NCBI GenBank assembly: GCA_964527765.1
Contig: CAZGQR010000001.1
Location: forward strand, 25,961 to 89,960
Origin: an uncultured Planctomycetia bacterium
Lineage (GTDB): Bacteria > Omnitrophota > Gorgyraeia > Tantalellales > Tantalellaceae
Reading direction: 5' to 3'
Length of the DNA: 64,000 nt
The notes under the pieces were generated by a model. That model was given only the letters and a program-made list of their open reading frames with translations, was not told the DNA's origin and did not search any database. Every line of letters starts with the position of its first letter. The first letter of the stretch is position 1. Shown here in pieces: positions 2,169 to 53,962 of the stretch. Position numbers and translations under genes: made by a program.

Positions 2169-2735
2169 TTACTCCTTTACTGATTGTTCCGTAGCGACCA
2201 GGATCCCCTCCACTACTTCATCTTTTGTTTTTTGCTCCGATATCCCGACAATGCCTGTCATCCAGCTGTAGATCTGCGCGTCCAGCCCCACGAAAAACAT
2301 GCACGTCCTGGATCCTTCAACGGCGGACTGGCGTACATAATCGAGCGGGACAAGCAGCAGCATTATCCCTATTATCCCGAAAAATATGAATGCCCGCAAA
2401 GAAGCTACCAGCGCCCCGCCTATTCGCTCAATAAGAGCAAGTTCCTCACCTACGATGATATTGAAAACCCTTTCCAAAATCTTAATAACTGTGAATAAAG
2501 CCGCGGAAATAACAAAGAACGACACCGGTTTTGCCCATTTCTGCAGCAAAAAACCAAATATCGCTTCAGATAGAAAACTATAATATCCTATTGAAACGAA
2601 TATTAAGATAAACCAGCCCACAAGAGAAAGGAGTTGACCGCCGACACCGGTCCTTAATCCTTTATAAACCATTCCCAATAAAAGGATTATGAAAAGTATA
2701 TCCAGCCAGTTAATGTTTGTTAATGTTATGGGCAA
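2169..2735 (-). CDS. cvpA: CvpA-family membrane protein
   Basis: 188-aa ORF with four predicted TM helices and the N-terminal pattern of the colicin V production protein family. Confidence 0.55.
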   Translation of the reverse strand: MPITLTNINWLDILFIILLLGMVYKGLRTGVGGQLLSLVGWFILIFVSIGYYSFLSEAIFGFLLQKWAKPVSFFVISAALFTVIKILERVFNIIVGEELALIERIGGALVASLRAFIFFGIIGIMLLLVPLDYVRQSAVEGSRTCMFFVGLDAQIYSWMTGIVGISEQKTKDEVVEGILVATEQSVKE

Positions 2736-6596: not shown

Positions 6597-6672
6597 GGGG
6601 CAGTAGCTCAGTTGGGAGAGCATCACGTTCGCAACGTGGGGGTCGTGGGTTCGAATCCCATCTGCTCCACCA
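6597..6672 (+). tRNA. tRNA-Ala (anticodon CGC)
   Basis: 76-nt cloverleaf GGGGCAG..CTGCTCCACCA with a G3:U70 identity pair, anticodon loop TTCGCAA, a TTCGAAT T-loop and an encoded CCA. Confidence 0.9.
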
Positions 6673-12760: not shown

Positions 12761-15556
12761 CTATCTCATCAAGAGCTTTTTGAGATATGCTCCGGTATGG
12801 GACTTCTTGCCGGAAGCCACTTCTTCGGGGGTGCCGCAAGCGACCAGCTCGCCGCCGGTATCTCCGCCTTCCGGCCCGAGATCTATGATATAATCCGCGG
12901 ACTTGATGACATCCAGGTTATGCTCGATCACCAGTACCGTATTTCCGGCGGATACCAGGGCATGCAGCACATCCAGCAGTTTGTGTATATCCGCAAAATG
13001 TAACCCCGTAGTAGGCTCGTCCAGTATATACAGCGTCTTGCCGGTAGCCGTCTTGGACAATTCTGTCGCAAGTTTCACCCTCTGCGCTTCTCCGCCGGAT
13101 AATGTCGTCGCCGGCTGCCCAAGCCTTATATACCCCAGCCCGACATCGTACAGGGTCCGCATCTTGTTCTTGATCGCGGGGATGTTCTCGAACAGCTTCA
13201 GCGCATCCTCCACGCTCAGATCAAGGACCTCAGAAATATTGTACCCCTTGTATCTTATCTCAAGCGTCTGGTCATTGAATCGCTTGCCGTTGCAGACCTG
13301 GCACTGCACATAAACGTCCGGCAGGAAATGCATCTCGATCTTTTTCATCCCGTCGCCCTGGCACGCTTCACAGCGGCCTCCCTTGACATTGAAACTGAAC
13401 CTGCCGGGTTTATAGCCCCGCATGCGCGATTCGGGAAGAGAGCTGAAAAGCTTTCGTATGGGGTCAAATGCTCCCGTGTATGTCGTGGGATTGGACCTAG
13501 GGGTCCTCCCTATGGGGGACTGGTCTATCACTATCACTTTGTCTATGTGTTTAACGCCGTTTATCCTTTTATGCTTACCGGGTTTTACCTTGGACCTGTA
13601 AAGTTTTTTAGCCAGCGCCCTGTATAGAACCTCGTCGATGAGCGTGCTTTTCCCCGATCCCGAAACACCCGTCACGCAGTTAAACACGCCCAACGGGATA
13701 CTCACATCTATGCGTTTGAGATTATGCTCGGCGGCGCCTATCACTTCCAGGCGTTTATCCGGGTCGTATTCCCGCCTTTTCTTCGGCACCTCGATCTTCA
13801 GATCTCCGCGCAGATACTTGCCGGTAAGCGACTGCTTGTTCTTGAGAATATCAGCCAATCCTCCTACTACGACCACTTCCCCTCCATGTTCACCCGCCCC
13901 GGGACCCAGGTCAATAATATAGTCCGCCTTTCGTATAGTCGTTTCGTCATGCTCGACCACCACAAGCGTATTCCCGAGCTCTTTAAGCGCGACCAGGGTG
14001 TCAAGAAGCTTGCGGTTGTCTTTCTGGTGAAGCCCGATACTCGGTTCGTCCAGGACATAGAGCACGCCGACCAGGCCGGCCCCGATCTGCGTGGCGAGCC
14101 GGATCCTCTGGTCCTCGCCTCCTGAAAGCGTGTTGCTTCTCCTGTCCAGGGTGAGATACCCAAGCCCCACATTTATCATGAATTCCAGCCGTGACTTGAT
14201 CTCCTTGAGGGCTTCCTCGGCGATCTTCTTCTGCATCGCGTCAAGCTTAAGGCGGGAAAAATACTCTTTCGCCCCGGTTATGGACATCTCGCACGCGTCG
14301 GCAATGTTCTTGCCCCCGATAAACACATTACGCGATTCCTTGCGCAGGCGCTGCCCCTTACACTCCGGACAGGGCTGAACCGACATGAAACCGCTTATCA
14401 TCTCCTTGATAAAATCGCTTTCGGAGTGGCGGAAACGCCTCTCCAGATTGGGAATAACGCCTTCAAAACCCGATTCATCATCCCCGTAAAGGACCATCTT
14501 CTTCTGGGCGGAAGTCAGCTTCTCGAACGGCATCTCATGATCAAAGCCATGATACCTGGCCATCCTTCGGATATGCCGGCGGTAGTGAAGCACGATCCCT
14601 TTGCCGCCTCTTTTCCAGGGAACAACCGCCCTTATAAGAGATTCGGTCTTGTCCGGGACTATCAGTTCCGGATCTATCTCCATTTTGTTCCCCAGGCCGT
14701 TGCAGGCGGGACACGCGCCGTAAGGGCTGTTAAAGGAAAAATTTCTCGGTGCCAGCTTTTCAAAACTTATCCCGCACCTGAGGCAAGCGTTCTTCTCGCT
14801 GAAAAGTATATCCTCGGTAAGGTTCCCTTTTTCATCCAGCAGAACCACAACAGTAGTACCGGAACCGAGCTTGAGCGCCGTCTCGACCGAATCGGACAGG
14901 CGCGACCGGATACCCTTTTTCATGACAAGCCTGTCCACCACCGCCTCAATAGTATGCTTGACCTTTTTATTCAGTCTCGGGATGCGGTCGCCTATATCCA
15001 CGATCTTTCCGTCAAGCCTTATCCTGATAAGCCCTTCTTTTCTCGCGCCCTTCATCACCTCAACATGCTCACCTTTTCTTCCCTGGATCAAGGGAGCGAG
15101 TATCATCAGCTTTTTGCCTTCCTTAAAGGACATGATACGATCGACGATCTGCTGCGAGCTCTGTCCGGATATTTCCCTGCCGCACCTGGGACAACGCTGG
15201 ATGCCGATCCTCGCGAAAAGCACTCTCAGGTAATCGTAGATCTCGGTCTGCGTGCCTACGGTCGATCGGGGATTCCTTCCAGCCGTCCTCTGCTCGATGC
15301 TTATGGTCGGCGATAATCCCTCGATGTAGTCCACGTGGGGCTTCTGGAGCTGTTCGATAAACTGTCTCGCGTAGCTGGATAAGGACTCCACGTAACGCCT
15401 TTGGCCTTCAGCATATATGGTATCAAACGCGAGAGACGACTTGCCGGAACCGGAAAGGCCGGTAACCACGCACAGCGTGTTCCGTGGAATGCGGACATCG
15501 ATGCTTTTGAGGTTATGCTCCCTGGCGCCTTTTACGAAAATATGATCCTTGCTCAT
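12761..15556 (-). CDS. uvrA: Excinuclease ABC subunit A
   Basis: ORF track 12761..15613. Two ABC ATPase modules ([20 protein letters not shown]) and zinc fingers. The likely start is [17 protein letters not shown]. Confidence 0.95.
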
Positions 15557-15627
15557 AGGGTATGATTGTAACATAAATATATTTACGTCACAACAAGTTA
15601 GTGATTTTCGCATTTGTGAAAATATAT

Positions 15628-15656
15628 TTGATTATTTTTAAAAAATGTAGTATATT
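15628..15656 (+). promoter_or_regulatory. Sigma-70-type promoter (TTGATT-N17-TATATT) for the XRE-cupin regulator gene
   Basis: The -35 is at 15628-15633, followed by a 17-nt spacer and the -10 at 15651-15656. An imperfect inverted repeat ATTTTCGCA-tt-TGTGAAAAT lies at 15604-15624, just upstream. Confidence 0.4.
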
Positions 15657-15708
15657 GTCAATATCGGAAAACAGCAAATACTTTTTGAGTTATCTCAAAG
15701 GAGGAAGT

Positions 15709-16260
15709 ATGAAAATAGGAAAAAGGATGCGTTTGTTGAGAAAAGAAAAGGATATCACGCTTGAAGAGCTTTCCGAGAAAAGCGGCGTGGCCCTGGCCAC
15801 CCTCAGCCGCATGGAAAACAACAAGATGGCGGGCACCCTGGCCTCCCATAACAAGATATGCAAGGCCCTCGGCGTCTCGATCTCCGAACTCTACCGCGAG
15901 CTCGAGGACGAAACCAAAACAGTCGAAGCGGTCCCGAAATACAAAAGAACGGAACACTTTATCCATGCCCGCAAGGCAAAATACGAACTCCTTGTCACGA
16001 AAACGCTCGACAAAAAGATAATGCCGCTAATGATGAAACTCGCAAGCGGAGGCAAAACACAAAAAGAACAAAATAAACCCGGCGTGGAAAAATTCATATA
16101 CATGATAGCCGGAACCCTTGAAGCGATTGTCGGCAACGAAACGCACACTCTAAAACGCGGTGACAGTCTCTATTTCGACGCTTCCCTCCCCCATGTATTC
16201 AAAAACAACGCCAAAACGGAAGCGGAGGCAATGTGCATTATTTCACCGCCGGCATTATGA
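15709..16260 (+). CDS. XRE-family HTH transcriptional regulator with a C-terminal cupin domain
   Basis: ORF track 15601..16260. The RBS AAGGAGGA precedes ATG at 15709 (MKIGKRMRLLRKEKDITLEELSEKSGV). The N-terminus is an HTH_3 domain and the C-terminus is a cupin (GDSLYFDASLPH). Confidence 0.75.
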   Translation: MKIGKRMRLLRKEKDITLEELSEKSGVALATLSRMENNKMAGTLASHNKICKALGVSISELYRELEDETKTVEAVPKYKRTEHFIHARKAKYELLVTKTLDKKIMPLMMKLASGGKTQKEQNKPGVEKFIYMIAGTLEAIVGNETHTLKRGDSLYFDASLPHVFKNNAKTEAEAMCIISPPAL

Positions 16261-16327
16261 TCGGTATGTCGTCATCCTGTAAGACTGGAAATCTATAACA
16301 TTGCTAATAAGCTTGAGGAGGAAAAAA

Positions 16328-16684
16328 ATGAATAAACAAAAAAAGATCCTGATCTGTGACGACGAAGAAGGAGTCCGGGAATCACTTAATCTGATACTCG
16401 AAGACATGTATAATCTTGATTTTGCTTCTTCGGGAGACGAAGCTATACAAAAAGCTAAAAATCAAAAGTACGATGGAGTATTGCTGGATATCAAAATGCC
16501 CGCAAAAGACGGCCTTGAAACCCTGGAAGAGCTCCGGCAAATATCTCCCGACGTGAAAGTCATCATAGTCACCGGATATCAAAGCGTAGAAACCGCCGCA
16601 AAAGCCGTCCAACTGGGCGCAATGGACTACATCACCAAACCTTTTGAGAGCGATGAGGTAAAGGAAAAGATTGGGAGAATTTAA
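16328..16684 (+). CDS. Response regulator, receiver domain only (CheY-like)
   Basis: RBS GAGGAGG precedes MNKQKKILICDDEEGVRESL. The phospho-acceptor pattern DD...D(LLDIKMP)...T...K is present and there is no output domain. Confidence 0.8.
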   Translation: MNKQKKILICDDEEGVRESLNLILEDMYNLDFASSGDEAIQKAKNQKYDGVLLDIKMPAKDGLETLEELRQISPDVKVIIVTGYQSVETAAKAVQLGAMDYITKPFESDEVKEKIGRI

Positions 16685-16757
16685 AGTATTGCAAAAGAAA
16701 TAAATTTGGGATAGCACTAAAAAACTCAATTAAGTATCCATTAGAGTATTGTTTATA

Positions 16758-18383
16758 ATGATTAACTTATATGGCATATCTAACATACTTACTACAATAA
16801 CTAGCATGGCTATGGCCCTATTCGTCTATACAAAAGGCTATAGAAGCAAATTATGCAAAACATGGTCAATTTTTGCCATTTGTGTCGCTATTTATGGATT
16901 TGGCGCGTATATGGCATCTGGTTCTAGAAACTCATTATCAGCATTTTTTTGGTGGCAAATTTCCTATATAGGCGTTATCATGCTACCTGCCTTATTTATA
17001 CATTTTGTTTATGTTTTTTTAAATATCAAACGAGCTTACATTATTAGAATTGTATACATTTTAAGTTTAATAGTGTTAGCTGCGGATATTTTTAGTAAAA
17101 ATTTGTTTGTTGGAAATGTTAGTTTATTATTCACAAATTCGAAATGGTTTACCCCAGCTTGGTGGATTTATCCCCCCGGCCCCCTGCACATCTTCTACAC
17201 TCTTTTCTTGTATATTGGATTACTAATATATGCTCATGTTGAATTGATTAAAGCATATAAAAATTCTGGGCACCTTAAACAACAACAAATCAAGTACTTT
17301 TTCTTTGCTACAACATTGGGCTTTGTCGGAGGTGGAACTTCCTATTTGCCATGCTTTGGCATAAATGTATATCCTGTTTTGAATATAACTGTACCTTTAT
17401 ATCCGCTAATTATGACTTATGCTATTATCCGCCATCAACTTATGGATATAGAAGTTATAATCAAAAAAACTCTTATTTATTCAGTGCTAATATCTGTTAT
17501 AACAATTCTTTATTTCATTATTGTTTATACCTTGGAAAAGATCTTTAGCATCATTGTAGGATATTATTCTATGCCATTAGCCATAACTATCATTACCTTC
17601 TTTTCAATAATATTTATCCCCTTAAAAAACAAAATTCAAAAATTTATTGATAAATATTTCTTCCATGGCTCCATAGATCAGATAGATGAGGAAAACATCA
17701 AGCTTCGCGAAGAACTTCAGAAAGCCGAAAAGCTAAAGGCGGTAGCTACCCTTGCCGCAGGTATGGCGCATGAGATAAAAAACCCTCTTACATCGATCAA
17801 AACCTTTACAGAATACATTTCTAAAAAGAAAACTGACCCGGAATTTCTTGAAAAGTTCCAAAAAATCGTCAGCGGTGAAGTTAACAGGATAAATTATATC
17901 GTCAAACAACTGCTGGAGTTTTCTAAACCCAGCGATCTCCAGCTTAAAGAAACCGGCATCGATAGTCTGCTGGATGAAACGTTGGATCTATTGAATAATG
18001 ATTTTCTGAAACATAACATAAAAATCGAAAAATGTTACTCTCCTCTGCCCTCGATCAAAGTTGACCCTTCACAAATGAAACAAGTCTTTCTCAATCTCTT
18101 ACTGAATGCCATAGACTCGATGGAAACTGGCGGGATTATCACGGCAACCATTAAACCAGGCAAAAACGATAATATAATAATAAAAATCAAAGATTCAGGT
18201 AAGGGCATAGAAAAAGAAGATCTCAAGCATATTTTCGACCCGTTTTTCAGCAAGAAAAACGGTGGAACAGGCCTCGGCCTCAGCGTAGTTCATGGAATTA
18301 TCGAAAAACACGGCGGAAAGATAAGCGTCGAAGGCGTCCCAGGCCATGGAACATCTTTCCAGATCAATCTACCAATCGATTAA
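16758..18383 (+). CDS. Sensor histidine kinase with an N-terminal polytopic (7-9 TM) membrane domain, HisKA_7TM-type
   Basis: ORF track 16749..18383 (TTG); the first ATG is at 16758. It has 8-9 hydrophobic helices, then the HisKA H-box (MAHEIKNPLTSIK) and an HATPase_c domain (GGTGLGLS). The loop YAIIRHQLMDIEVIIKKTLIY is shared with the second kinase. Confidence 0.8.
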   Translation: MINLYGISNILTTITSMAMALFVYTKGYRSKLCKTWSIFAICVAIYGFGAYMASGSRNSLSAFFWWQISYIGVIMLPALFIHFVYVFLNIKRAYIIRIVYILSLIVLAADIFSKNLFVGNVSLLFTNSKWFTPAWWIYPPGPLHIFYTLFLYIGLLIYAHVELIKAYKNSGHLKQQQIKYFFFATTLGFVGGGTSYLPCFGINVYPVLNITVPLYPLIMTYAIIRHQLMDIEVIIKKTLIYSVLISVITILYFIIVYTLEKIFSIIVGYYSMPLAITIITFFSIIFIPLKNKIQKFIDKYFFHGSIDQIDEENIKLREELQKAEKLKAVATLAAGMAHEIKNPLTSIKTFTEYISKKKTDPEFLEKFQKIVSGEVNRINYIVKQLLEFSKPSDLQLKETGIDSLLDETLDLLNNDFLKHNIKIEKCYSPLPSIKVDPSQMKQVFLNLLLNAIDSMETGGIITATIKPGKNDNIIIKIKDSGKGIEKEDLKHIFDPFFSKKNGGTGLGLSVVHGIIEKHGGKISVEGVPGHGTSFQINLPID

Positions 18384-18391
18384 TCCGGCTA

Positions 18392-19714
18392 TTACACTGT
18401 ATTGCGTAATTTCCCCTTTTTGTATGCCAGCAGGAAAGCGCTTACGATTATAGGATCGAACTGCGTCCCTGAATTGTCCTTGATTATCTGAACAGCAATT
18501 TCTGCCATTTTTTTCTGGCGGTAAGGTCTGTCGCTGGTTATTGCATCAAAAGTATCTGCAACAGAGATTATGCGGGAAATAAACGGTATCTCTTCGCCCT
18601 TTAGACCATCCGGATATCCGGCACCGTCAAACCTTTCATGATGGGCACGCACTTCCTTGGCGATATCCCCCAATTCCTTTATGGGATTAAGTATTGCCGA
18701 CCCTGTGATTGAGTGCTCTTTCACTTTTTCGTATTCTTCCTTAGTCAATTGACTGCTCTTGTTCAAAACACTGTCCGGAACGCCGATCTTTCCAACATCA
18801 TGAAGCAACGCCGCTAGATGAAGTGTCTCTTTGAAGTTTTTATATGCCTTTGCTTCAGGGACATCCTCAAGTTCCCCTCCAATGGCCAATGCATATTGCG
18901 TAACACGCTCGGTATGGCCGTGCGTGTAAAGATCTCTTGCGTCTATAGCGGCTGCCAGGGAAATAGCTGTATGAATGAATATGCGATGTTCCCTTTCATA
19001 AAGACTGTGGACCTCGTAGATCTTATCCTGAAGGTCTTGTATAAGCTGCGCATTTGCAAGTGCCATGGCCACATCATTGGCAAGCGTTGTGAAAAACCCT
19101 ATTTCCTGTCTGGAAAATTTCATATTAGACAGTTTCTTTCCCAGGACAAAGACACCTATAAGATCTTTTTTATAATAGATCGGTATACAGATATTGGCCT
19201 TTAAAAGTTCCATCTGTCTGATAGTCAGCTCGATCAATTCAGCGAGTTCCTCATCCTTTTTAAGGTTCTCATCTCTCTGCAGAATATCAAGAAGTCCTTT
19301 ATACTCGATATCTCCTGTTTCTGATATCTTGTAATTGTACCGTTCATTAAACATCCGGATGAGGGGATTCTCAAACGTAAGCCGTATAAATCCTACCGGT
19401 ATCTTAACGCCTTCCGCACCCTTGCTATCGATAAGTATAAAAGAATCCTTGTCTTTGCGGTACAGGAGCATAGCCGTATGTGTAACTTTTACCTGTTCGT
19501 CTATGATCCTGACTATCATACGTATAAGGCGCTCGGGCTTTTTGAACCGTATCATGGTGCGAGAAGCGTTCTCCAGAAAGAATTGGTAATCCAATTCCGG
19601 TTCTTGTCTCTTCTGGACACTTTCCGAATCAATGGGGATCAGAGCACCGTCACAATTCTTCATTTTTTCGACGATCCAATCCTGTAGCTTTAACCAGTTA
19701 TCTTCGTATGACAT
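18392..19714 (-). CDS. GAF domain - HD-GYP phosphodiesterase (c-di-GMP hydrolase family)
   Basis: 440 aa with a GAF-like N-terminal half. The HD-GYP motifs are HGHTERV...HDVGK...HHERFDGAGYP. Confidence 0.8.
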   Translation of the reverse strand: MSYEDNWLKLQDWIVEKMKNCDGALIPIDSESVQKRQEPELDYQFFLENASRTMIRFKKPERLIRMIVRIIDEQVKVTHTAMLLYRKDKDSFILIDSKGAEGVKIPVGFIRLTFENPLIRMFNERYNYKISETGDIEYKGLLDILQRDENLKKDEELAELIELTIRQMELLKANICIPIYYKKDLIGVFVLGKKLSNMKFSRQEIGFFTTLANDVAMALANAQLIQDLQDKIYEVHSLYEREHRIFIHTAISLAAAIDARDLYTHGHTERVTQYALAIGGELEDVPEAKAYKNFKETLHLAALLHDVGKIGVPDSVLNKSSQLTKEEYEKVKEHSITGSAILNPIKELGDIAKEVRAHHERFDGAGYPDGLKGEEIPFISRIISVADTFDAITSDRPYRQKKMAEIAVQIIKDNSGTQFDPIIVSAFLLAYKKGKLRNTV

Positions 19715-19726
19715 CTTTTCTCCTAA

Positions 19727-20101
19727 CTACTTTTCCATTTTAATCTGCTCTGCAACCGTAAGAACAGTCCTCTCAAGCTGTTCAAGCAAAAGCGGCTTGG
19801 TGATGTACTCTGTTACCCCATGATGTTTTGCCTCCTCGGCTTTTTCCACATCTTCAACCGCCGTGATTATTATTACTTTTTTGGTGCTATCTTTTTTGCG
19901 GATCGCTTTAAGCGCCTCTATGCCATCCATGACCGGCATTTTTATATCCAGGAGGATTATATCCGGATTTATGGACTTTACTATGCTAAGAGCCTCTTTC
20001 CCGTCATAAGCGACAGATACTTCAAAATTCCTTTCTTTAAAGAAATTCTTCACAAAATCACACACATCCACTTCATCATCAACAACTAGTAGCTTCAGCA
20101 T
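19727..20101 (-). CDS. Response regulator, receiver domain only
   Basis: 124 aa: MLKLLVVDDEVDV...LLDIKMPVMDG...T...K, with no output domain. Confidence 0.8.
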   Translation of the reverse strand: MLKLLVVDDEVDVCDFVKNFFKERNFEVSVAYDGKEALSIVKSINPDIILLDIKMPVMDGIEALKAIRKKDSTKKVIIITAVEDVEKAEEAKHHGVTEYITKPLLLEQLERTVLTVAEQIKMEK

Positions 20102-20114
20102 GATATTTCTCCTC

Positions 20115-20492
20115 CTATTTATTCACCTTTGCGGCTCTATTAACAAGTTCCTCAAGAGATTTCAGGCTAGTTATGGGTTTTTCGACAAACGCATAAGCGC
20201 CTTTTTTCAATAAACGTTCTTTAGTCTTCCCGGGATCCCTGTACGCTGTTATAAAAATAACCTCAATATCTGCATTCAACTTTTTTATTTCTTCCATCAC
20301 TTTCTCGCCGTTAAGACCGGCCATCCTCAAATCAAGTAGAACAATATCGTATTTTTTCTGCCGCAAAAGCCCTAGCCCTCTATCGCCTCCCGATGTTGCA
20401 TCTATCTCATAACCCCTTGGTTCAAAATATTGTTTCAGCAAATCCGTAAAGCTTATTTCATCATCAATCGACAAAATTCTCGGCTTTTTCAT
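20115..20492 (-). CDS. Response regulator, receiver domain only
   Basis: 125 aa: RILSIDDEISF...LLDLRMAGLNG, with no output domain. Confidence 0.8.
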   Translation of the reverse strand: MKKPRILSIDDEISFTDLLKQYFEPRGYEIDATSGGDRGLGLLRQKKYDIVLLDLRMAGLNGEKVMEEIKKLNADIEVIFITAYRDPGKTKERLLKKGAYAFVEKPITSLKSLEELVNRAAKVNK

Positions 20493-20525
20493 CTTATTCT
20501 TTCTGCTTCAAGCACTAATTCTGCC

Positions 20526-22643
20526 TTAACTAGGCTGCACGGCATTAAAACTGAGACTAAAACGGGTTCCATTCCCAAGCTCACTTTGAACGCTTATATG
20601 CCCATTATTTCTTTCAACGATCTGCTTTACAATAAAAAGTCCGAGTCCGGCACCTCTACCCGGTTCTTTGGTAGTAAAAAACGGATTAAATATCTGACCC
20701 AAATGGTGCTTGCTTATTCCGACACCCGAATCTTCAATATCAATATAGACCCTTTTATTATTGCCTGATGCTCGTATGACGATTTTCCCATTTCCTTTGA
20801 TGGACTGGGCAGCATTTCTTACAATGTTGAAGAATATTTCCTGCAGCTGCTTCCGGTCCGCTGAAATGCATGGGAGGTCTTTTTTGATCTCTTTAGTAAT
20901 AATAATGTTTTCCATTTTTAAATCATGCTCTACAAGAGATATAACTTCATCCAATTCTTTTTCCACCTGAACATTACCCGCCATTTCTCCCTTTGCAGGC
21001 TTTGCAAAAGAAGAAAGTTTTTTAGTTATAACTGTAGCTCTGTCTGTCTCGTTCATAACTTTTTTCATTATTTCCTGCGCCTTTTCAAGTAATTCCTCCG
21101 GACTCTTGCCCTTGTAAACCCCGTCCTTCAGATTTAAAAGAAACATCTCGCATTGCCCGCGCGCTATCCCCAGGGGATTACAGATCTCGTGGTTTATGCC
21201 GGCGGAAAGAGTGCCTATGACTGCCATCTTCTCTCTCTGCGCCGCCTGGGCTTGGGCTTCCGAAAGTTTCTCGAAAAGCTGGGCATTGGTTATGGCTATG
21301 GAAAGCGTCCTTGCGAGAGGCAAAAGTATATCAATATCGTCCTGCGTGTATTCCTCGTCAGATTTCTTTTGCCCCAAAGACAATATTCCAACCATATTTT
21401 TATGGTGCATTAGCGGAATAACCAGAGCCGCGTTTAATTCGTGCATTTTCTTTTCTATATCGGTACCTACAAACTTTTTGCGTGCAGGGTCTTCCAAAAG
21501 AATATGTTTACCACTTCTTCGCATATAGGAAATGAGGTCTTCTTTATCGCTTAATTTATATGTAGTATTTTCTGGTTTACCAGACACCGATGCAGCTGTT
21601 CTGAATCCTTCTTTTCCTTCATCATAAAGCATTATAGAAGCATTATCTAATTTCACTATCTCCGCCAGCTTATTTACCGTAAGATTAACCAGCATGTTAA
21701 GATCAAGAACCATAAGTACCTCGTCAGAAAATGTTCTCAAAAGCTGCCTATAATCATATTTTTTCTGGAATAAGTACTTATCGGTAGTATTTCTTAAGAA
21801 ACTTTCAAGCGGACGAAGCATGAGAACCACTATCAATATAGAAGGTACCATTGCAATCCAGCGATTTCGAACCACATTTTCGAATACGGCAGATCCCAAA
21901 TAAGCAAAGCTCGCAAAAACCGCATAAGCAGCTACAAAAAGACCGGCAAAAATGAGGGTCTTTTTGACAATGACCTCGATGTCCATGAGCTGGTGCTTAA
22001 CAATTGCATATGCTACAATCCCTATATACACGCTTATCAAAATATTTGCATATGGCGGGAACTTTAGTCCATACCACAAAGGCCAATTATTTGCCCCTCC
22101 GAAAAAACCCACTATAGCTGCTAAAGTAAAATATCTTATTTGCATTTTGCGTCTAGAAGATCCAATATTTGCATTTTTCACCAAAAAAAAGAATCCGTAA
22201 AAACATTGAAAAAACCAAAACAATAAATAGAAATTAAAAAGAGTGGTTGGCTCTGGCCAATATCCAAAATTATATTTAGTGACAATATTGTGATATAAGT
22301 CCCCATGTATATTCGCCGCTATAAAGTAAATATTTAATAAGGCACATATTGCTAAAGATCGCTTTTGTTGCTCAAATATATTTAAAAAAACAAAAACAAA
22401 AAACAAATAAGCTAAACTTATTAGGATAAAACCTGTTACCAATATTTTAAACCAGAAAACAGCCATGTTTTTAGGTTCAGCAATTTGCCAAAAAAAATAA
22501 CCCAGGCTATAAAGAGCTACGCTTGCGTTTAACCAAAAATAAACAATATTTTGTATATTTCTTTTATTTTTTAAAAAAACAAAAATACCTAAACTAATAC
22601 AAGCTAAAAAATTTAGCATCCCTGTTAATGCCAAATAAGTCAT
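20526..22643 (-). CDS. Sensor histidine kinase: polytopic N-terminal membrane domain (HisKA_7TM-type) + GAF + HisKA + HATPase_c
   Basis: 705 aa with at least 7 TM helices and a GAF-like region. The H-box is INHEICNPLG and the ATPase motif is GAGLGLFIVKQIV. It is a paralog of the 16758..18383 kinase. Confidence 0.8.
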   Translation of the reverse strand: MTYLALTGMLNFLACISLGIFVFLKNKRNIQNIVYFWLNASVALYSLGYFFWQIAEPKNMAVFWFKILVTGFILISLAYLFFVFVFLNIFEQQKRSLAICALLNIYFIAANIHGDLYHNIVTKYNFGYWPEPTTLFNFYLLFWFFQCFYGFFFLVKNANIGSSRRKMQIRYFTLAAIVGFFGGANNWPLWYGLKFPPYANILISVYIGIVAYAIVKHQLMDIEVIVKKTLIFAGLFVAAYAVFASFAYLGSAVFENVVRNRWIAMVPSILIVVLMLRPLESFLRNTTDKYLFQKKYDYRQLLRTFSDEVLMVLDLNMLVNLTVNKLAEIVKLDNASIMLYDEGKEGFRTAASVSGKPENTTYKLSDKEDLISYMRRSGKHILLEDPARKKFVGTDIEKKMHELNAALVIPLMHHKNMVGILSLGQKKSDEEYTQDDIDILLPLARTLSIAITNAQLFEKLSEAQAQAAQREKMAVIGTLSAGINHEICNPLGIARGQCEMFLLNLKDGVYKGKSPEELLEKAQEIMKKVMNETDRATVITKKLSSFAKPAKGEMAGNVQVEKELDEVISLVEHDLKMENIIITKEIKKDLPCISADRKQLQEIFFNIVRNAAQSIKGNGKIVIRASGNNKRVYIDIEDSGVGISKHHLGQIFNPFFTTKEPGRGAGLGLFIVKQIVERNNGHISVQSELGNGTRFSLSFNAVQPS

Positions 22644-24016
22644 ATTATTTCTTTCCTAATAATGAAAAATAAAATAATGCCTGATTTATCTCTATGAACA
22701 TCAACATTTATTTTCCTTGCCTGTAAACTTTTTTTTATTAAGTCATCTAAATTTTTTCTAGCTCTAAAATAAAAATTCCAATCACAGAACCAATTTGGAG
22801 GTAATGGCTTGTATTTTAACGTATCTTTATGCGCGATAATTAAACGTCCCGCTTCAGCCACATATTTATCAAACCATATATTTAATAACTTTCCTGATAT
22901 TCTATCGGGCAGATAATCCATTAAACCTGTAGTATAAACCAAATCATTTTCCCCTATAATTTTAGAAAAATTTGCTCCATTAGTTATAAATTCCAAAACA
23001 TCATTTTTAAAATAATTAAAGGATGCATAGCTACTGAACTTTTCTACTGCTCCCCTTGTAAATAAAACAGCTTCACTATCTTGATCGAGCAAATTTATAA
23101 TAATTTCTTTTCCATTATCTTTGATTTTCTGTAAAAAATGGGCATCATGAAATAACTCTCTGATTTCTTTGCCGGAACCACACGCAATATTTAAAATTCT
23201 TACTTTTTTAAGAGGTGTATTTAAAATAAAGGTTTTTAAATAGTCTCTCATCCAATCCTTCCTCGATCTAACCGCCACTGCATATTTATTATTTTGAAAA
23301 TATACATCAAAACAGCGCCCAATTCCCTTTGACAGAACTTTAGTATCATATATATGTTCCATAATTCTATAATCACCAGGATATCCCCTAGGCTTATCAT
23401 AAGATCTCTTAACGATGTAACTTTTATAAGCCCAACAGCTCACTAATTCTCGAAATTCTTTCTTAATCCTTCGCACAACTATTTTGTTACTAACAGAATT
23501 TTCAAATTCATTAGCCTTTTCCATAATGTCTTCTGTTAAACTATGCAATAATCTTTCGGCTTCTGTTTCTTCAATCATATTGTGTGCAATTTTATTCATT
23601 AACTCAAATAAATCGAAAAAATACTGTAATACATATTTCGAAAAAATTTTTACTTGTCTTCGCTCATTTTTATTTTTGACTTCCCTTATTACATCCTTGA
23701 ATTTTCTAAATATTAAACTTTTTCGAATTAAATTAAGTATTTCAATATCAATATCCTCATATTTAGCCCCATAAACATATTTCCATTCTTTTGAAATTTC
23801 GCGCTCCCATATGATGTTAAACTTTATGTGCACTTTGCCATACGGCAACTTTAAGTCCCCAGATAATCTTGATGATTTTAATTGCTGCATTGTCACAAAA
23901 CACAATCCATCATCATTCAAATTAATACTTCTCGCACATTGCTTTCCCAACTTTAAAGGAAATTCTGATTTAATTCTTGGGGTCATTCTGTTATCAATAG
24001 TCGCAATCTCAAACAT
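22640..24016 (-). CDS. Putative PilZ-like N-terminal domain fused to a class I SAM-dependent methyltransferase
   Basis: ORF track 22640..24136, but the first 120 nt overlap the upstream HTH gene in another frame. The likely start is MFEIATIDNR at 24016, whose ATG overlaps the HTH stop (ATGTTTGA). The N-terminus has RMTPR (RxxxR) and INLNDDGLCF, a degenerate D/NxSxxG. The C-terminus has methyltransferase motif I (VRILNIACGSGKEIREL) and a post-I acidic residue (LLDQD). About 29% GC. Confidence 0.5.
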   Translation of the reverse strand: MFEIATIDNRMTPRIKSEFPLKLGKQCARSINLNDDGLCFVTMQQLKSSRLSGDLKLPYGKVHIKFNIIWEREISKEWKYVYGAKYEDIDIEILNLIRKSLIFRKFKDVIREVKNKNERRQVKIFSKYVLQYFFDLFELMNKIAHNMIEETEAERLLHSLTEDIMEKANEFENSVSNKIVVRRIKKEFRELVSCWAYKSYIVKRSYDKPRGYPGDYRIMEHIYDTKVLSKGIGRCFDVYFQNNKYAVAVRSRKDWMRDYLKTFILNTPLKKVRILNIACGSGKEIRELFHDAHFLQKIKDNGKEIIINLLDQDSEAVLFTRGAVEKFSSYASFNYFKNDVLEFITNGANFSKIIGENDLVYTTGLMDYLPDRISGKLLNIWFDKYVAEAGRLIIAHKDTLKYKPLPPNWFCDWNFYFRARKNLDDLIKKSLQARKINVDVHRDKSGIILFFIIRKEII

Positions 24017-24209
24017 CTTTTCCTCTGCTACTTTTTTGACTTTTTTCCTGTTTTTCAATCCACTCATCGATCGTTTCTTTTTTGAAGCGCCATTTGGAGC
24101 CAACTTTGAACCCGGGGATCTTGCCCTCCTGGGCATGCTTGTAAATTGTGACGACTTTCATCTTGAGATAGTCGGCCAATTCGTTAATTGTCATTACTGA
24201 ACTCGCCAT
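24009..24209 (-). CDS. Excisionase-family (MerR-like) helix-turn-helix DNA-binding protein
   Basis: 66 aa: MTINELADYLKMKVVTIYKHAQEGKIPGFKVGSKWRFKKETIDEWI, the typical excisionase/Xis-type HTH. Confidence 0.65.
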   Translation of the reverse strand: MASSVMTINELADYLKMKVVTIYKHAQEGKIPGFKVGSKWRFKKETIDEWIEKQEKSQKSSRGKDV

Positions 24210-24580
24210 ATTTCCCCCTATGATAAATTGATTTAATTTACTATATTGTGCTTTTTACTGCTGTTTATTGATATAGAATGGTTTAATTTAATATGGTTTA
24301 ACATAGATTGTAAAATCGCGAAATAATATATAATCATAAAACCACTATAAACTGTGGACTTTTCAACAAAAAAACTATTACGATTTGCTACCTTTTGGTG
24401 TATTTTCCGACAATTTACCCTAATCTTTTATAGATTGGTACAAATTGGTCGGCGTTGTTAAAGTATAATGGGGAAAAGACAAAAGTCAAGAGCATGAAAA
24501 AAGTTTTTGAGTATATACCCATTTGATGTGGACCACTTTTTACGGTACACAATATATGGTGTTAAAAATGGCCTTAAAAA

Positions 24581-25030
24581 TTAGAATATTTTGAGGTATA
24601 GCAGAATTTGCAGAATCAGATTGGTGTATATAGCAGCTACAAGATCATCCAGCATTATCCCCCATCCCCCGCCCATTTTTTCCACGGATCTCATGGGAGG
24701 AACCTTTATAATGTCTATAATTCGGTACAGGATAAAGCCAGTAAGAATGGTGGAAGTCCTAATAGGAACGAAGAGAAACACAAGAAATATAGAGGCGAAT
24801 TCATCAATAACAACGATCGAGGGGTCTTTGTAGCCAATTTCCGCTTCCACCTTGCCCGAGGATACTGTGCCGGCGATAAAAAAGACGGCAAAAGCAATCA
24901 AATATATGACCAGATTTCCGTGCAGGGCCAGGCAAAGGACCAGACCGGCCAGGCTTCCCAGCGTACCCGGGACAATACTGATACGGCCTATCCCCAATAC
25001 AGTTGCGATAAGATCATGTGCCTTTTTCAT
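24581..25030 (-). CDS. pgpA: Phosphatidylglycerophosphatase A
   Basis: 149-aa membrane protein with a GIGRISIVPGTLGSLAGL motif. Confidence 0.75.
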   Translation of the reverse strand: MKKAHDLIATVLGIGRISIVPGTLGSLAGLVLCLALHGNLVIYLIAFAVFFIAGTVSSGKVEAEIGYKDPSIVVIDEFASIFLVFLFVPIRTSTILTGFILYRIIDIIKVPPMRSVEKMGGGWGIMLDDLVAAIYTNLILQILLYLKIF

Positions 25031-48334: not shown

Positions 48335-48511
48335 AACCAGTTTTCCCGACTTCTTTCATCCCGGCTTTACGGTCGGTATTCGATTCTCACGAATTCGGAC
48401 CCCGTCTATCGGGGTTTCGCGGACTTTTCCTCGCTTGCGCGGAGAAATCACCGCCGACTAAGGAATTTCCTGCCGCATCCCTGCGGGGGCAGGATCACCT
48501 TACCCTGAAGT
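48335..48511 (-). promoter_or_regulatory. FMN riboswitch (RFN element) in the ribBA leader
   Basis: The minus-strand RNA contains conserved RFN blocks: GCGGCAGGAAATTCC, GTCGGCGGTGA, CCGCGCAAGCGAGG and ACCGACCGTAAAGCCGGGATGAAAGAAG. These match the GGGGCAGGGTGAAATTCCC / CCGGCGGTA / CCGACAGTGAAAGTCTGGATGGGAGAAG consensus. Confidence 0.75.
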
Positions 48512-48518
48512 TAGAATA

Positions 48519-53245: not shown

Positions 53246-53962
53246 TTATCGCCTCCCCTTTATCCCCATATCCTCCAGGAAGATCTCTATATCCCGATTG
53301 GCCTCCCAGATCCTCCTGATCTTCTCTCTCTTTCGGATAAACGCTCTGACAACAGCAGGATCAAAATGCCCTCCGGATCTTTCCCTTACCATGGAAACCG
53401 ATCTTTCGAAATTATACGCCCTTTTATAGGAGCGCTGTGACGCGAACGCGTCGAAACAATCCGCAAGGGCGACGATCCTTCCGTAAAGAGGTATGTTCTC
53501 CCCTTTAAGTCCGCGCGGATATCCGGATCCGTCAAATCGTTCGTGGTGCGTCAGCGCGATGGTCCTGCAGGCGCGCATCATAGGGGACTTCGCGTTCTTG
53601 AATATCTGGGCGCCGACCTCGGGATGCCTTCTCATGAGCTTCTTCTCCACGGGGGTCAGCTTGCCCTTCTTCTTGAGGATCTTATCGGGAAGCATGACCT
53701 TGCCGACATCGTGCATGGGGCTTGCATATCTTATGACCGCCACCTCCTCCTTCGGCAGGCCAAGACCTTCAGCTATCGTGGCGCTGTAGTCGGCTATCCG
53801 GACAAGATGGGCCCCGGTGGCCGGGTCACGAAATTCCGCCATCAGCGCCAGACGGAACACCATTTCCAGGTGGGAATTCTTGAGCTTATTGTAGGCCTTT
53901 CTCAGCTCCTTATGGGTCCTCTGGAGCTTATCGCAAGTATCCCTCTTTGTTTTTCTGGCCAT
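53246..53962 (-). CDS. Stand-alone HD-GYP domain phosphodiesterase
   Basis: 238 aa with the motifs HDVGK...HHERFDGSGYP. Confidence 0.8.
   Translation of the reverse strand: MARKTKRDTCDKLQRTHKELRKAYNKLKNSHLEMVFRLALMAEFRDPATGAHLVRIADYSATIAEGLGLPKEEVAVIRYASPMHDVGKVMLPDKILKKKGKLTPVEKKLMRRHPEVGAQIFKNAKSPMMRACRTIALTHHERFDGSGYPRGLKGENIPLYGRIVALADCFDAFASQRSYKRAYNFERSVSMVRERSGGHFDPAVVRAFIRKREKIRRIWEANRDIEIFLEDMGIKGRR

What the first reader, a model, noticed from the sequence alone, without database searches (positions are those of the whole stretch)
15601..24580. AT-rich island encoding a c-di-GMP-linked multi-kinase signalling module between uvrA and pgpA
Nine genes in two divergent blocks sit between the core genes uvrA and pgpA. 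Sampled 60-nt lines suggest about 30-40% GC for HK1, the REC genes, the HK2 5' half, the PilZ-MT gene and the 24.2-24.6 kb intergenic region, against about 50% in the flanks. The block ends in an excisionase-type HTH and a 370-bp AT-rich spacer with short GTTTAATTTA repeats. Composition, and the absence of any partner GGDEF cyclase, suggest a horizontally acquired accessory module. The co-located parts that are not a standard operon are:
- an XRE-cupin regulator;
- three orphan REC-only proteins;
- two paralogous polytopic kinases, one with a GAF domain;
- a GAF-HD-GYP phosphodiesterase;
- a PilZ-like-methyltransferase fusion.
Basis: partly seen in the sequence, partly recalled or inferred. 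Interest (0 to 1): 0.7.

Follow-up and report, generated by a model that had tools for sequence, protein, structure and literature searches.

The report
Signalling locus with swappable enzyme-sensor modules
This AT-rich stretch is not a freshly inserted island but a signalling locus kept at the same place in related Omnitrophota bacteria, where a conserved kinase/c-di-GMP backbone carries exchangeable AT-rich parts: an enzyme gene (here a c-di-GMP-sensor fused to a quorum-sensing-type methyltransferase) and the membrane sensor halves of its kinases.

Summary
GC is 0.37 inside 15601-24580 and 0.51 outside.

The reading as a horizontally acquired nine-gene island is only partly right.
- The backbone sits next to pgpA in six other Omnitrophota genomes (uvrA follows in three). 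It comprises an HTH_17 regulator, a GAF-kinase core, receivers and an HD-GYP enzyme; XRE-cupin, REC1 and HK1 occur in some.
- Backbone protein identities (HTH_17, HD-GYP) track the housekeeping flanks.
- There is no integrase, tRNA or att repeat.

What varies, and is AT-rich, is narrower.
- The enzyme slot between HTH_17 and the kinase holds different genes: PilZ-methyltransferase here, aldehyde dehydrogenase plus GMC oxidoreductase in two genomes, and an HMG-CoA-reductase-like gene in another.
- The 7TM sensor halves of both kinases also vary. GC3 drops inside the kinase genes near the 7TM/cytoplasmic boundary (sharpest in L007).
- One sensor type occurs on two different kinase backbones.

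The methyltransferase is homologous to that of a phcBSRQ-like operon. In 48 of 72 family loci across several phyla it is followed directly by a 7TM kinase.

Best reading: an enzyme makes a small molecule, the adjacent kinase senses it, and the pair is coupled to c-di-GMP. The chemistry is inferred, not shown.

The parts
15709..16260 (+). XRE-family HTH plus cupin regulator, 183 aa. It is transcribed divergently from uvrA, which starts at 15613 on the minus strand.
   Evidence: Pfam HTH_3 41 bits and Cupin_2 51 bits. The start follows the public gene calls. Orthologues are 67-77% identical in L007 and L095.
16328..16684 (+). REC1, a stand-alone receiver of 118 aa.
   Evidence: Response_reg 108.8 bits. 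The acidic pocket, phospho-acceptor Asp, Thr and Lys are all present.
16758..17657 (+). HK1 7TM sensor module ('sensor type B'), AT-rich.
   Evidence: HisKA_7TM 48 bits. GC3 is 0.22-0.38, against 0.40-0.48 in the kinase half. It is 68-73% identical to the 7TM of the L096 and L097 kinases that follow Aldedh+GMC oxidoreductase. It is only 30% identical to the 7TM of its positional orthologues in L007 and L097.
17658..18383 (+). HK1 kinase core (HisKA plus HATPase_c).
   Evidence: HisKA 49 bits and HATPase_c 96 bits. The H-box is AAGMAHEIKNPL. It is 62-68% identical to the HK1 cores of L007 and L097.
18392..19714 (-). GAF-HD-GYP c-di-GMP phosphodiesterase, 440 aa.
   Evidence: HD_5 135.9 bits, HD 74 bits and GAF 28 bits. 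The motifs HD (305) and HHERFDGAGYP (358-368) are present. Orthologues are 63-84% identical.
19727..20101 (-). REC3, a stand-alone receiver of 124 aa.
   Evidence: Response_reg 102 bits. It is fused with REC2 into one 268-aa protein in L007.
20115..20492 (-). REC2, a stand-alone receiver of 125 aa.
   Evidence: Response_reg 82 bits.
20526..21743 (-). HK2 cytoplasmic part: GAF (21264-21743) plus HisKA-HATPase kinase core (20526-21263). This is part of the conserved backbone.
   Evidence: GAF_2 44.5 bits and HATPase_c 82 bits. The kinase core is 60-74% identical in L007, L008, L095, L096 and L097.
21744..22643 (-). HK2 7TM sensor module ('sensor type A'), AT-rich.
   Evidence: HisKA_7TM 33 bits. 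GC3 is 0.20-0.23 over aa 1-180. It is 55-63% identical in the genomes that carry PilZ-MT, and 31-43% in those that carry other enzymes.
22640..24016 (-). PilZ-methyltransferase fusion, 458 aa. PilZ barrel is aa 1-90 (23747-24016), helical domain aa 91-266 (23219-23746), and class I SAM methyltransferase aa 267-458 (22640-23218).
   Evidence: Family alignment: RxxxR and the motif Gly are invariant, as are the KPRGYPGDY, ACG and W..W.F..R motifs. PilZ hits 65 of 68 members and Methyltransf_20 hits 55 of 68. AF2 model has pLDDT 93.7. Foldseek finds small-molecule methyltransferases. hhalign to a phcB-like methyltransferase gives 99.6% probability. GC is 0.296 and GC3 0.25.
24009..24209 (-). HTH_17 (MerR/excisionase-type) DNA-binding protein, 66 aa, and first gene of the minus-strand operon. 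Its stop overlaps the PilZ-MT start.
   Evidence: NCBIfam 'excise' 57 bits. MAD1 scores 74 bits, below its cut-off of 80. It is 80-85% identical in L007, L095, L096 and L097 whatever enzyme follows.
24210..24580 (.). AT-rich spacer between pgpA and HTH_17, the presumed promoter/operator region. Two 22-nt direct repeats lie at 24223-24244 and 24273-24294.
   Evidence: GC 0.288. There is no Rfam match. Promoter-like sites are not enriched over shuffles. No motif is shared with the upstream regions of relatives.

Best explanation
This is a lineage-conserved, c-di-GMP-coupled two-component signalling locus of an Omnitrophota bacterium. It combines a conserved backbone with exchangeable AT-rich modules.

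**Backbone**
- An HTH_17 regulator.
- The GAF-HisKA-HATPase core of HK2.
- Two CheY-like receivers.
- A GAF-HD-GYP phosphodiesterase.
- A convergent second system: XRE-cupin, REC1 and the HK1 core.

**Exchangeable modules**
- The enzyme slot between HTH_17 and the kinase. Here it holds a PilZ-fused, PhcB-like SAM methyltransferase.
- The 7TM sensor halves of both kinases.

**Proposed working (inferred)**
1. The methyltransferase makes or modifies a small lipophilic metabolite.
2. The 7TM sensor of the adjacent HK2 detects that metabolite.
3. HK2 phosphorylates REC2 and REC3.
4. The receivers modulate the HD-GYP enzyme, and so the c-di-GMP level.
5. c-di-GMP binds the PilZ domain and feeds back on methyltransferase activity.
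6. HK1 carries the sensor type that sits beside an aldehyde-dehydrogenase/GMC-oxidoreductase pair in sister genomes. It would listen for a second molecule.

**Shown:** domain content, conservation of the locus, module swapping, and compositional breakpoints.
**Inferred:** the chemistry, the phosphotransfer routes and the feedback.
For: **Conserved locus**
- pgsA-pgpA-HTH17-[enzyme]-HK-REC(s)-HDGYP is found in L007, L008, L095, L096, L097 and the P0003 contig (cut after its receiver gene). XREcupin-uvrA follows in L007, L008 and L095.
- Backbone identities are similar to the flanks.

**Variable slot**
- PilZ-MT in the window, L007, L008 and P0003.
- Aldedh plus GMC oxidoreductase in L096 and L097.
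- An HMG-CoA-reductase-like gene in L095.

**Sensor shuffling**
- Kinase cores fall into two orthologous groups, 58-74% and 61-68% identical.
- The window's HK1 7TM is 68-73% identical to the 7TM on the HK2-type core of L096 and L097. The HK1 cores of L007 and L097 carry sensors only 25-35% identical.

**Composition**
- GC3 breakpoints lie inside both kinase genes. In L007 the 7TM halves are 0.15-0.33 and the cytoplasmic parts 0.50-0.71.
- Family-wide, methyltransferase GC3 is below its neighbours in 47 of 55 loci (Wilcoxon 1e-7).
- The first 250 codons of the adjacent kinase sit a median 0.053 below the locus, and the last 250 codons +0.005.

**Enzyme-sensor coupling**
- The methyltransferase is followed directly by a HisKA_7TM kinase in 30 of 39 PilZ-MT loci and 18 of 33 MT-only loci. 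These include MAGs labelled Spirochaetota, Margulisiibacteriota and Endomicrobiales.
- Mantel rho is 0.40 for MT versus 7TM (p 0.0005), 0.18 for MT versus kinase, and 0.20 for 7TM versus kinase.
- Sensor type B is never adjacent to a methyltransferase in the 80 loci.

**Methyltransferase identity**
- hhalign gives 99.6% probability (E 1.5e-23) to the 468-aa methyltransferase of an MT-HK-RR-RR operon in Paraburkholderia.
- JGI names sister proteins '3-hydroxypalmitic acid methyl ester biosynthesis protein'.
- PhcB and PhcS are reported to co-evolve with signal type (PMC7694676).
- Fold hits are small-molecule methyltransferases.

**Link to c-di-GMP**
- The PilZ RxxxR motif and the motif Gly are invariant in the family.
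- The HD-GYP motifs are intact.
- REC-PilZ-MT and HTH_17-PilZ-MT fusions exist.
Against: - No direct comparison with Ralstonia PhcB was possible. The link rests on a Paraburkholderia operon, and on a source's product names given to other family members and to the sister cNMP-MT family.
- The window protein itself gets no Pfam PilZ or methyltransferase hit.
- Its second PilZ motif reads NLNDDG, with Asn where Ser or Ala is expected. c-di-GMP binding is therefore uncertain in this clade.
- Nine of 39 PilZ-MT loci lack an adjacent 7TM kinase.
- The MT-7TM correlation is moderate.
- By tblastn, an HD-GYP-like gene lies beside the cassette only in a minority of family loci. The c-di-GMP output may therefore be clade-specific.
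- PilZ-MT orthologues in the window and L007 are both GC3 0.24-0.25 at only 44% identity, and no close donor exists among 5.8 billion proteins. Part of the AT-richness may therefore be maintained in place rather than imported.
- No diguanylate cyclase is present in the window.
Confidence: 0.55

Rival explanations
1. The whole nine-gene block is a recently acquired genomic island inserted between uvrA and pgpA.
For: - GC is 0.37 inside against 0.51 outside.
- The nearest relative by flanks, L093, has no block after pgpA.
- An IS200-type transposase sits at the junction in L095.
Against: - The backbone sits next to pgpA in six other genomes, and identities of HTH_17 and HD-GYP track the flanks.
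- No integrase, tRNA or flanking repeats are present.
- In L007 the HD-GYP and REC genes have native GC3 of 0.68-0.69.
- All public contigs of this strain carry the block.
Confidence: 0.08
2. No exchange is needed. The AT-rich parts are fast-evolving segments that have decayed in place towards an AT-rich mutational equilibrium, for instance because divergent alleles escape recombination and GC-biased gene conversion.
For: - Orthologous PilZ-MT genes in the window and L007 both have GC3 of about 0.24 at 44% identity in syntenic positions.
- The deviation is negative in 47 of 55 loci and near zero in several low-GC hosts.
- No close donor exists in the protein database.
- The whole block is mildly AT-shifted in the window, yet HD-GYP is 75% identical to L007.
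Against: - Non-homologous enzymes occupy the same slot.
- The same sensor type occurs on two kinase backbones, and unrelated sensors occur on orthologous cores.
- pgpA and rodZ diverge as fast (43-47% identity) but keep normal GC3.
Confidence: 0.2
3. The methyltransferase is not a signal synthase. It either methylates the kinase or receivers, as in CheR-like adaptation gated by PilZ (compare MapZ-CheR1), or it modifies a membrane lipid whose state the 7TM kinase monitors.
For: - PilZ proteins are known to control a methyltransferase, as in MapZ-CheR1.
- In this clade the locus abuts pgsA and pgpA.
- There is tight MT-kinase adjacency.
Against: - The best fold matches are small-molecule O- and C-methyltransferases with an N-terminal helical domain.
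- The enzyme is homologous to a phcB-like methyltransferase.
- The same kinase backbone accepts redox enzymes in the slot.
- The pgpA neighbourhood is clade-specific.
Confidence: 0.15
4. The block is an anti-phage defence system of the MADS type, because the HTH resembles MAD1 and sits next to a methyltransferase.
For: NCBIfam MAD1 scores 74.4 bits for the 66-aa HTH. PADLOC mad1 scores 29 bits.
Against: - The MAD1 score is below its cut-off of 80, and the model covers only a generic HTH_17.
- No other MADS or defence component is found in any of the nine proteins.
- The methyltransferase fold matches small-molecule enzymes.
Confidence: 0.02

Closest known systems
Phc quorum-sensing operon phcBSRQ of Ralstonia (methyltransferase PhcB, sensor kinase PhcS, receivers PhcR and PhcQ)
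   Same: - The gene order is the same: methyltransferase, polytopic sensor kinase, then two receiver proteins.
- The methyltransferase domain is homologous to that of a phcBSRQ-like operon in Paraburkholderia (hhalign 99.6%; shared KPxGYxGDY, motif I and C-terminal motifs).
- Synthase and sensor co-vary, as reported for PhcB and PhcS (PMC7694676; here).
   Different: - The N-terminal domain here is a PilZ barrel with an RxxxR motif.
- The kinase sensor is HisKA_7TM plus GAF, whereas the Paraburkholderia kinase has a weak MASE8-like match.
- Both receivers are single-domain.
- The operon carries an HD-GYP phosphodiesterase and an HTH_17 regulator.
- The phylum is Omnitrophota.
- The product is unknown.
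- Orthology to Ralstonia PhcB itself was not tested.
Pherotype cassettes agrBDC (staphylococci) and comQXP (Bacillus)
   Same: - A variable segment spans the signal-making enzyme and only the sensor half of the kinase, with breakpoints inside the kinase gene.
- The phosphotransfer core stays conserved (the properties of agr and comQXP are from my own knowledge).
   Different: - The signals here would be small metabolites made by unrelated enzyme classes, not modified peptides.
- Variation is seen between genera, not yet within a species.
- Whole sensor modules move between two paralogous kinases.
MapZ-CheR1 (a PilZ adaptor controlling a methyltransferase in Pseudomonas aeruginosa)
   Same: A c-di-GMP-binding PilZ domain is coupled to a SAM methyltransferase.
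   Different: - Here the two are fused in one polypeptide.
- The methyltransferase is PhcB-like, not CheR.
- No chemotaxis genes are nearby.
cNMP-binding-Methyltransf_20 proteins (about 480 aa; JGI product name 'EF 3-hydroxypalmitic acid methyl ester biosynthesis protein')
   Same: They share the helical-plus-methyltransferase module and signature motifs, and they have a nucleotide second-messenger sensor domain at the N-terminus.
   Different: The sensor domain is cyclic-nucleotide-binding rather than PilZ. The one context examined (L085) lies next to a polyketide synthase, not a 7TM kinase.
PrsK/PrsR (XrtA/PEP-CTERM system kinase, TIGR02916)
   Same: HK2 shares the multi-TM-GAF-kinase layout and scores 148 bits to the model.
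   Different: The score is below the 300-bit cut-off, and there are no PEP-CTERM or exosortase genes here.

Membership tests
PilZ domain (c-di-GMP receptor, PF07238) | RxxxR motif at the N-terminus | tested here: met
   The window protein reads R10-M-T-P-R14. Both Arg are invariant in the 68 homologues.
PilZ domain (c-di-GMP receptor, PF07238) | (D/N)x(S/A)xxG motif | tested here: inconclusive
   The window reads N-L-N-D-D-G, with Asn at the Ser/Ala position. The same holds in L007 (DFNELG). The family consensus is DLSExG and the Gly is invariant.
PilZ domain (c-di-GMP receptor, PF07238) | Significant match to the family profile, and a beta-barrel fold | tested here: inconclusive
   The window protein has no Pfam hit, but 65 of 68 homologues hit PilZ. 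The family profile hits Alg44 PilZ with E 0.0013. The AF2 model shows six beta strands in residues 15-86.
PilZ domain (c-di-GMP receptor, PF07238) | Binds c-di-GMP | not testable with these tools
   Needs a binding assay.
PhcB-type autoinducer methyltransferase (Methyltransf_20) | Class I SAM methyltransferase fold with a nucleotide-binding motif I | tested here: met
   Motif ILNIACGSG with acidic D311. AF2 pLDDT is 93.7. Foldseek hits to SAM methyltransferases have E of 1e-9 to 1e-7.
PhcB-type autoinducer methyltransferase (Methyltransf_20) | Sequence homology to PhcB | tested here: inconclusive
   hhalign gives 99.6% to the methyltransferase of a phcBSRQ-like operon in Paraburkholderia graminis, which has Arg at position 22 as reported for PhcB (PMC6989110). 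Ralstonia PhcB itself could not be compared. The window protein has no PF12147 hit, but 55 of 68 relatives do.
PhcB-type autoinducer methyltransferase (Methyltransf_20) | Operon with a membrane sensor kinase and two receiver proteins | tested here: met
   PilZ-MT, HK2, REC2 and REC3 lie on one strand with overlaps or gaps of at most 33 nt.
PhcB-type autoinducer methyltransferase (Methyltransf_20) | Produces a diffusible 3-hydroxy fatty acid methyl ester sensed by the kinase | not testable with these tools
   Needs biochemistry.
HD-GYP c-di-GMP phosphodiesterase | HD and HHExxDGxGYP motifs, and an HD_5 profile match | tested here: met
   HD at 305 and HHERFDGAGYP at 358-368. HD_5 scores 135.9 bits against a cut-off of 27.2.
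Genomic island (recent horizontal acquisition) | Deviant composition | tested here: met
Genomic island (recent horizontal acquisition) | Mobility genes, a tRNA target, or flanking direct repeats | tested here: not met
   All nine genes are signalling genes. The nearest tRNAs are at 6597 and 42745. There are no flanking repeats.
Genomic island (recent horizontal acquisition) | Absent from the same junction in relatives | tested here: not met
   The backbone is present at the junction in six of seven relatives with a readable junction. It is absent only in L093.
Pherotype-type specificity cassette (agr/comQXP-like) | A variable region that covers the signal enzyme plus the sensor half of the kinase, with a conserved kinase core | tested here: met
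Pherotype-type specificity cassette (agr/comQXP-like) | Several specificity types segregating within one species, with cross-talk or inhibition | not tested
   Only one strain of this species is available, at 99.95% identity or more. Variation was seen only between genera.
MADS defence system | MAD1 above its cut-off, plus further MADS components | tested here: not met
   MAD1 scores 74.4, below 80. PADLOC finds no other MADS protein.

The most novel reading that the evidence does not exclude
Omnitrophota carry a plug-in communication system that has not been described. A fixed phosphorelay/HD-GYP chassis accepts interchangeable 'enzyme plus 7TM sensor' cassettes, and each cassette defines a different small-molecule signal. 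In the PilZ-methyltransferase version, c-di-GMP gates autoinducer synthesis directly. The window organism would 'speak' one signal (PilZ-MT with HK2 sensor A). Through HK1 (sensor B) it would 'listen' to the signal that sister genera make with an aldehyde dehydrogenase/GMC oxidoreductase pair.
Probability: 0.25. Interest if true: 0.85.

Novelty: new variant of a known kind. Interest (0 to 1): 0.62.

Why it matters
- **Biology of the phylum.** Omnitrophota are uncultivated, and I know of no cell-cell signalling chemistry described for them. None turned up in my literature searches. A conserved cassette that pairs a PhcB-like methyltransferase with a 7TM kinase gives a concrete candidate that can be tested heterologously.
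- **c-di-GMP signalling.** The PilZ fusion suggests a direct route from c-di-GMP to signal synthesis. I did not find such a route described.
- **Sensor evolution.** The locus is a clean natural example of sensor-module swapping between kinase cores. The compositional breakpoints sit at domain boundaries, which is useful for understanding and engineering sensor specificity.
- **Method.** A strong GC dip between core genes need not mean a mobile island. Here it marks the variable modules of an otherwise vertically inherited locus.

Tried and rejected
- **RNA elements.** Rfam on the window (gathering threshold) and on 15300-24800 (E up to 1) found no riboswitch or RNA in the block. In particular there is no c-di-GMP riboswitch in the 371-bp spacer.
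- **Promoters and terminators.** Consensus sites are not enriched over shuffles.
- **Shared operator.** Upstream regions of HTH_17 in ten loci share no 9-mer in three or more loci. The GTTTAATTTA repeats are not conserved.
- **Defence system.** PADLOC gave only generic domain matches.
- **att-like repeats.** None were found at the block ends. The best repeat is a 24-nt inverted pair at 17003/22378, which is paralogous coding sequence of the two 7TM domains.
- **Strain variation.** L001-L006 are the same strain at 99.95% identity or more, so they give no presence/absence information.
- **Direct PhcB comparison.**
  - NCBIfam has no matching PhcB model.
  - The plasmid collection yielded only a Paraburkholderia phcBSRQ-like operon.
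  - The AlphaFold-database fold library was unavailable.
- **Literature.** No paper was found that describes PilZ-PhcB-like fusions or ligands for HisKA_7TM.
- **Generic causes of low GC3.** I considered relaxed constraint and membrane-protein coding. I rejected both because pgpA, rodZ and the other membrane proteins keep normal GC3.

Full report
**1. The observation**

The dip in G+C is real and large. GC is 0.373 over 15601-24580 and 0.508 over the rest of the window. One-kb windows inside fall to 0.29-0.43, against about 0.50 outside. At third codon positions the 50 ORFs outside the block have median GC3 0.61, SD 0.055 and minimum 0.45. Inside the block:
- the PilZ-methyltransferase gene has GC3 0.25-0.27;
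- both kinases have 0.36;
- the receivers and the HD-GYP gene have 0.39-0.46.

Other membrane proteins in the window keep GC3 of 0.46-0.61. The effect is therefore not a by-product of membrane-protein coding.

The gene list is correct:

| Gene | Coordinates | Strand |
|---|---|---|
| XRE-cupin | 15709-16260 | + |
| REC1 | 16328-16684 | + |
| HK1 (HisKA_7TM-HisKA-HATPase) | 16758-18383 | + |
| GAF-HD-GYP (intact HD and HHERFDGAGYP) | 18392-19714 | - |
| REC3 | 19727-20101 | - |
| REC2 | 20115-20492 | - |
| HK2 (HisKA_7TM-GAF-HisKA-HATPase) | 20526-22643 | - |
| PilZ-methyltransferase | 22640-24016 | - |
| HTH_17 | 24009-24209 | - |
| AT-rich spacer, two 22-nt repeats | 24210-24580 |. |

Three corrections apply.
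- The two blocks are convergent, not divergent.
- The 498-aa ORF is an artefactual extension; the real gene encodes 458 aa.
- The PilZ and methyltransferase assignments are not significant for this protein alone. They hold at family level, with 65 of 68 homologues hitting PilZ and 55 of 68 hitting Methyltransf_20.

**2. Where it comes from, and whether it is an island**

The PilZ-methyltransferase has at least 188 database relatives at E<=0.001. Most named ones are labelled Candidatus Omnitrophota. The identical protein occurs on contigs from several metagenomes, all from one strain at 99.95% identity or more.

I could read that junction in seven other genomes. Six carry the block backbone next to pgpA.
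- **L007** (GCA_014728075.1) has the complete block in the same order.
- **L008** (GCA_015231405.1) has a rearranged subset.
- **The P0003 contig** has pgpA-HTH17-PilZMT-HK-REC.
- **L095, L096 and L097** have the backbone with other enzymes in the slot.

The backbone's HTH_17 and HD-GYP are as conserved as the housekeeping flanks.
- HTH_17 is 80-85% identical in L007, L095, L096 and L097 (52% in L008).
- HD-GYP is 63-84%.
- The HK2 kinase core is 60-74%.
- UvrA is 74-81% and FtsK 61-86%.

There is no integrase, no tRNA and no flanking repeat. The 'excisionase' is the most conserved protein of the cassette in four of the five relatives compared, and it is fused to the methyltransferase in one homologue.

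Only L093, the closest relative by flanks (FtsK 86%), lacks the block after pgpA. The simplest history is an ancestral locus with one loss or rearrangement. A recent nine-gene insertion does not fit.

**3. What actually varies**

The slot between HTH_17 and the kinase holds non-homologous genes.
- PilZ-methyltransferase: window, L007, L008 and P0003.
- Aldehyde dehydrogenase plus GMC oxidoreductase: L096 and L097.
- An HMG-CoA-reductase-like gene: L095.

The kinases are mosaics. Their kinase cores form two clean orthologous groups, an HK2 type (58-74% identical) and an HK1 type (61-68%). The 7TM sensors do not follow these groups.
- The window's HK1 sensor is 68-73% identical to the sensor on the HK2-type core in L096 and L097.
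- The HK1 cores of L007 and L097 carry sensors only 25-35% identical to anything else compared.
- The HK2-type sensor of the window is shared at 55-63% only by the genomes that also carry PilZ-MT.

Enzyme type and sensor type therefore go together.
- PilZ-MT goes with sensor A.
- Aldedh plus GMC oxidoreductase goes with sensor B.
- The HMG-CoA-reductase-like gene goes with a third sensor type.
- Sensor B is never found beside a methyltransferase in the 80 family loci.

**4. Composition follows the modules**

In L007 the GC3 changes sharply inside both kinase genes, at the junction between the 7TM and cytoplasmic parts. The 7TM halves are 0.15-0.33 and the rest 0.50-0.71. The window shows the same pattern more weakly.

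In L096 the two enzymes and the sensor have GC3 of 0.24-0.30, against about 0.6 in the flanks.

The pattern holds across 55 family loci from many genomes.
- The methyltransferase has lower GC3 than its neighbours in 47 loci (Wilcoxon p 1e-7).
- It is the lowest ORF in 26 loci.
- The first 250 codons of the adjacent kinase sit a median 0.053 below the locus. The last 250 codons do not (+0.005).

Two points are not explained by simple import.
- The syntenic PilZ-MT genes of the window and L007 share GC3 of about 0.24 at only 44% identity.
- No close donor exists in a database of 5.8 billion proteins.

Some process seems to keep these modules AT-rich in place. One possibility is escape from recombination and GC-biased conversion. 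I cannot distinguish this from repeated import out of an unsampled AT-rich pool.

**5. What the methyltransferase is**

The AlphaFold model is confident (pLDDT 93.7). It shows three parts:
- a beta barrel, residues 15-86;
- a helical domain, residues 91-266;
- a Rossmann-type methyltransferase.

The family profile hits the Alg44 PilZ domain (E 0.0013). RxxxR and the motif glycine are invariant. The window protein, however, has Asn at the Ser/Ala position of the second PilZ motif.

Foldseek finds small-molecule O- and C-methyltransferases and the uncharacterised structure 3ocj.

The methyltransferase part aligns with 99.6% probability (E 1.5e-23) to the 468-aa methyltransferase of an MT-kinase-RR-RR operon on a Paraburkholderia graminis replicon. 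The two share the KPxGYxGDY, motif I and C-terminal motifs. That operon has the layout and protein sizes described for phcBSRQ, and Arg at position 22 as reported for PhcB.

A sister family carries a cyclic-nucleotide-binding domain in place of PilZ. JGI names it after PhcB's function. I could not compare Ralstonia PhcB directly.

**6. Coupling of enzyme and kinase**

The methyltransferase is followed directly, on the same strand, by a HisKA_7TM kinase in 30 of 39 PilZ-MT loci and 18 of 33 MT-only loci. These include MAGs labelled Spirochaetota, Margulisiibacteriota and Endomicrobiales.

Pairwise identities of the methyltransferase correlate better with the adjacent 7TM sensor than with the kinase core.
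- MT versus 7TM: Mantel rho 0.40, p 0.0005.
- MT versus kinase core: rho 0.18.
- 7TM versus its own kinase core: rho 0.20.

REC-PilZ-MT fusions exist. PhcB and PhcS are reported to have co-evolved with signal type, independently of strain phylogeny (PMC7694676).

**7. Mechanism proposed**

*Shown:* a conserved phosphorelay/HD-GYP backbone with exchangeable enzyme and sensor modules.

*Inferred:*
1. The enzyme makes or modifies a small lipophilic molecule.
2. The neighbouring 7TM sensor detects it.
3. HK2 signals through REC2 and REC3 to the HD-GYP phosphodiesterase.
4. c-di-GMP acts back on the methyltransferase through PilZ.
5. HK1, with sensor B, listens for a second molecule.

The same backbone accepts redox enzymes in the slot. 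This argues against the methyltransferase acting on the kinase itself.

*Weak points:*
- the imperfect PilZ motif;
- no cyclase in the window;
- HD-GYP beside the cassette in only a minority of family loci by tblastn;
- no biochemical evidence.

**8. Verdict**

- The island interpretation is partly supported: modules are exchanged, the block is not.
- The system is a new variant of known kinds. It combines a Phc-type methyltransferase-kinase-receiver operon with pherotype-like modular exchange, and adds PilZ gating and an HD-GYP output.
- I found no description of it in the searchable literature.

Noticed in passing
window 15829-16239 (XRE-cupin gene) and 15564/15596: Contigs of the same strain from other metagenomes are identical to the window over about 21 kb, apart from 7-8 SNPs. 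Nearly all of these cluster in the XRE-cupin gene: seven within 15951-16083, all at third codon positions. This looks like a short recombination tract. One further recurrent SNP lies at 22286 in the HK2 7TM.
   Followed up: partly
window 48344-48516 (-): An FMN riboswitch at 70.6 bits, above its gathering score of 66.2.
   Followed up: no
window 53246-53962 (-): A second, short ORF of the HD-GYP type (about 240 aa) with the motif HHERFDGSGYP. No GGDEF motif occurs anywhere in the 64 kb.
   Followed up: no
L095:10582-11262: An IS200/IS605-type Y1 transposase (GC3 0.39) is inserted between pgpA and HTH_17, exactly at the junction where the window has its AT-rich spacer.
   Followed up: no
L093:8587-17443: In the closest relative, pgpA is followed by a CN_hydrolase gene and a giant ORF of more than 2474 aa that runs off the contig. 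The signalling block is not there.
   Followed up: partly
L085:1-4797: An Oxalobacteraceae MAG encodes a cNMP-binding-methyltransferase of the same family (488 aa, motif KPRGYAGDY) directly downstream of a polyketide-synthase gene. The large sister family (at least 464 proteins at E<=1e-5) is partly named after PhcB by JGI.
   Followed up: partly
L009:2531-12858: In a distant Omnitrophota genome the HTH17-PilZMT-7TM kinase cassette is preceded by a transposase-type integrase gene (HTH_38 plus rve Pfam hits). It is followed by a run of eight receiver genes and an acyl-carrier-like gene.
   Followed up: no
window 17003-17026 and 22378-22401: A 24-nt inverted repeat, 96% complementary. It is paralogous coding sequence of the HK1 and HK2 7TM domains, which lie on opposite strands. 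The two kinases also share a near-identical HQLMDIEVI(I/V)KKTLI junction motif, a possible recombination point.
   Followed up: partly
L094 (GCA_043816025.1 JBDRIH010000030.1), contig end: The contig of another relative ends about 200 bp after pgpA, where the AT-rich spacer would begin. This may be an assembly break at the variable region.
   Followed up: no
window 2169-2735 (-): A second, smaller GC dip (1-kb window 0.42) coincides with a very hydrophobic 188-aa ORF with GC3 0.48.
   Followed up: no
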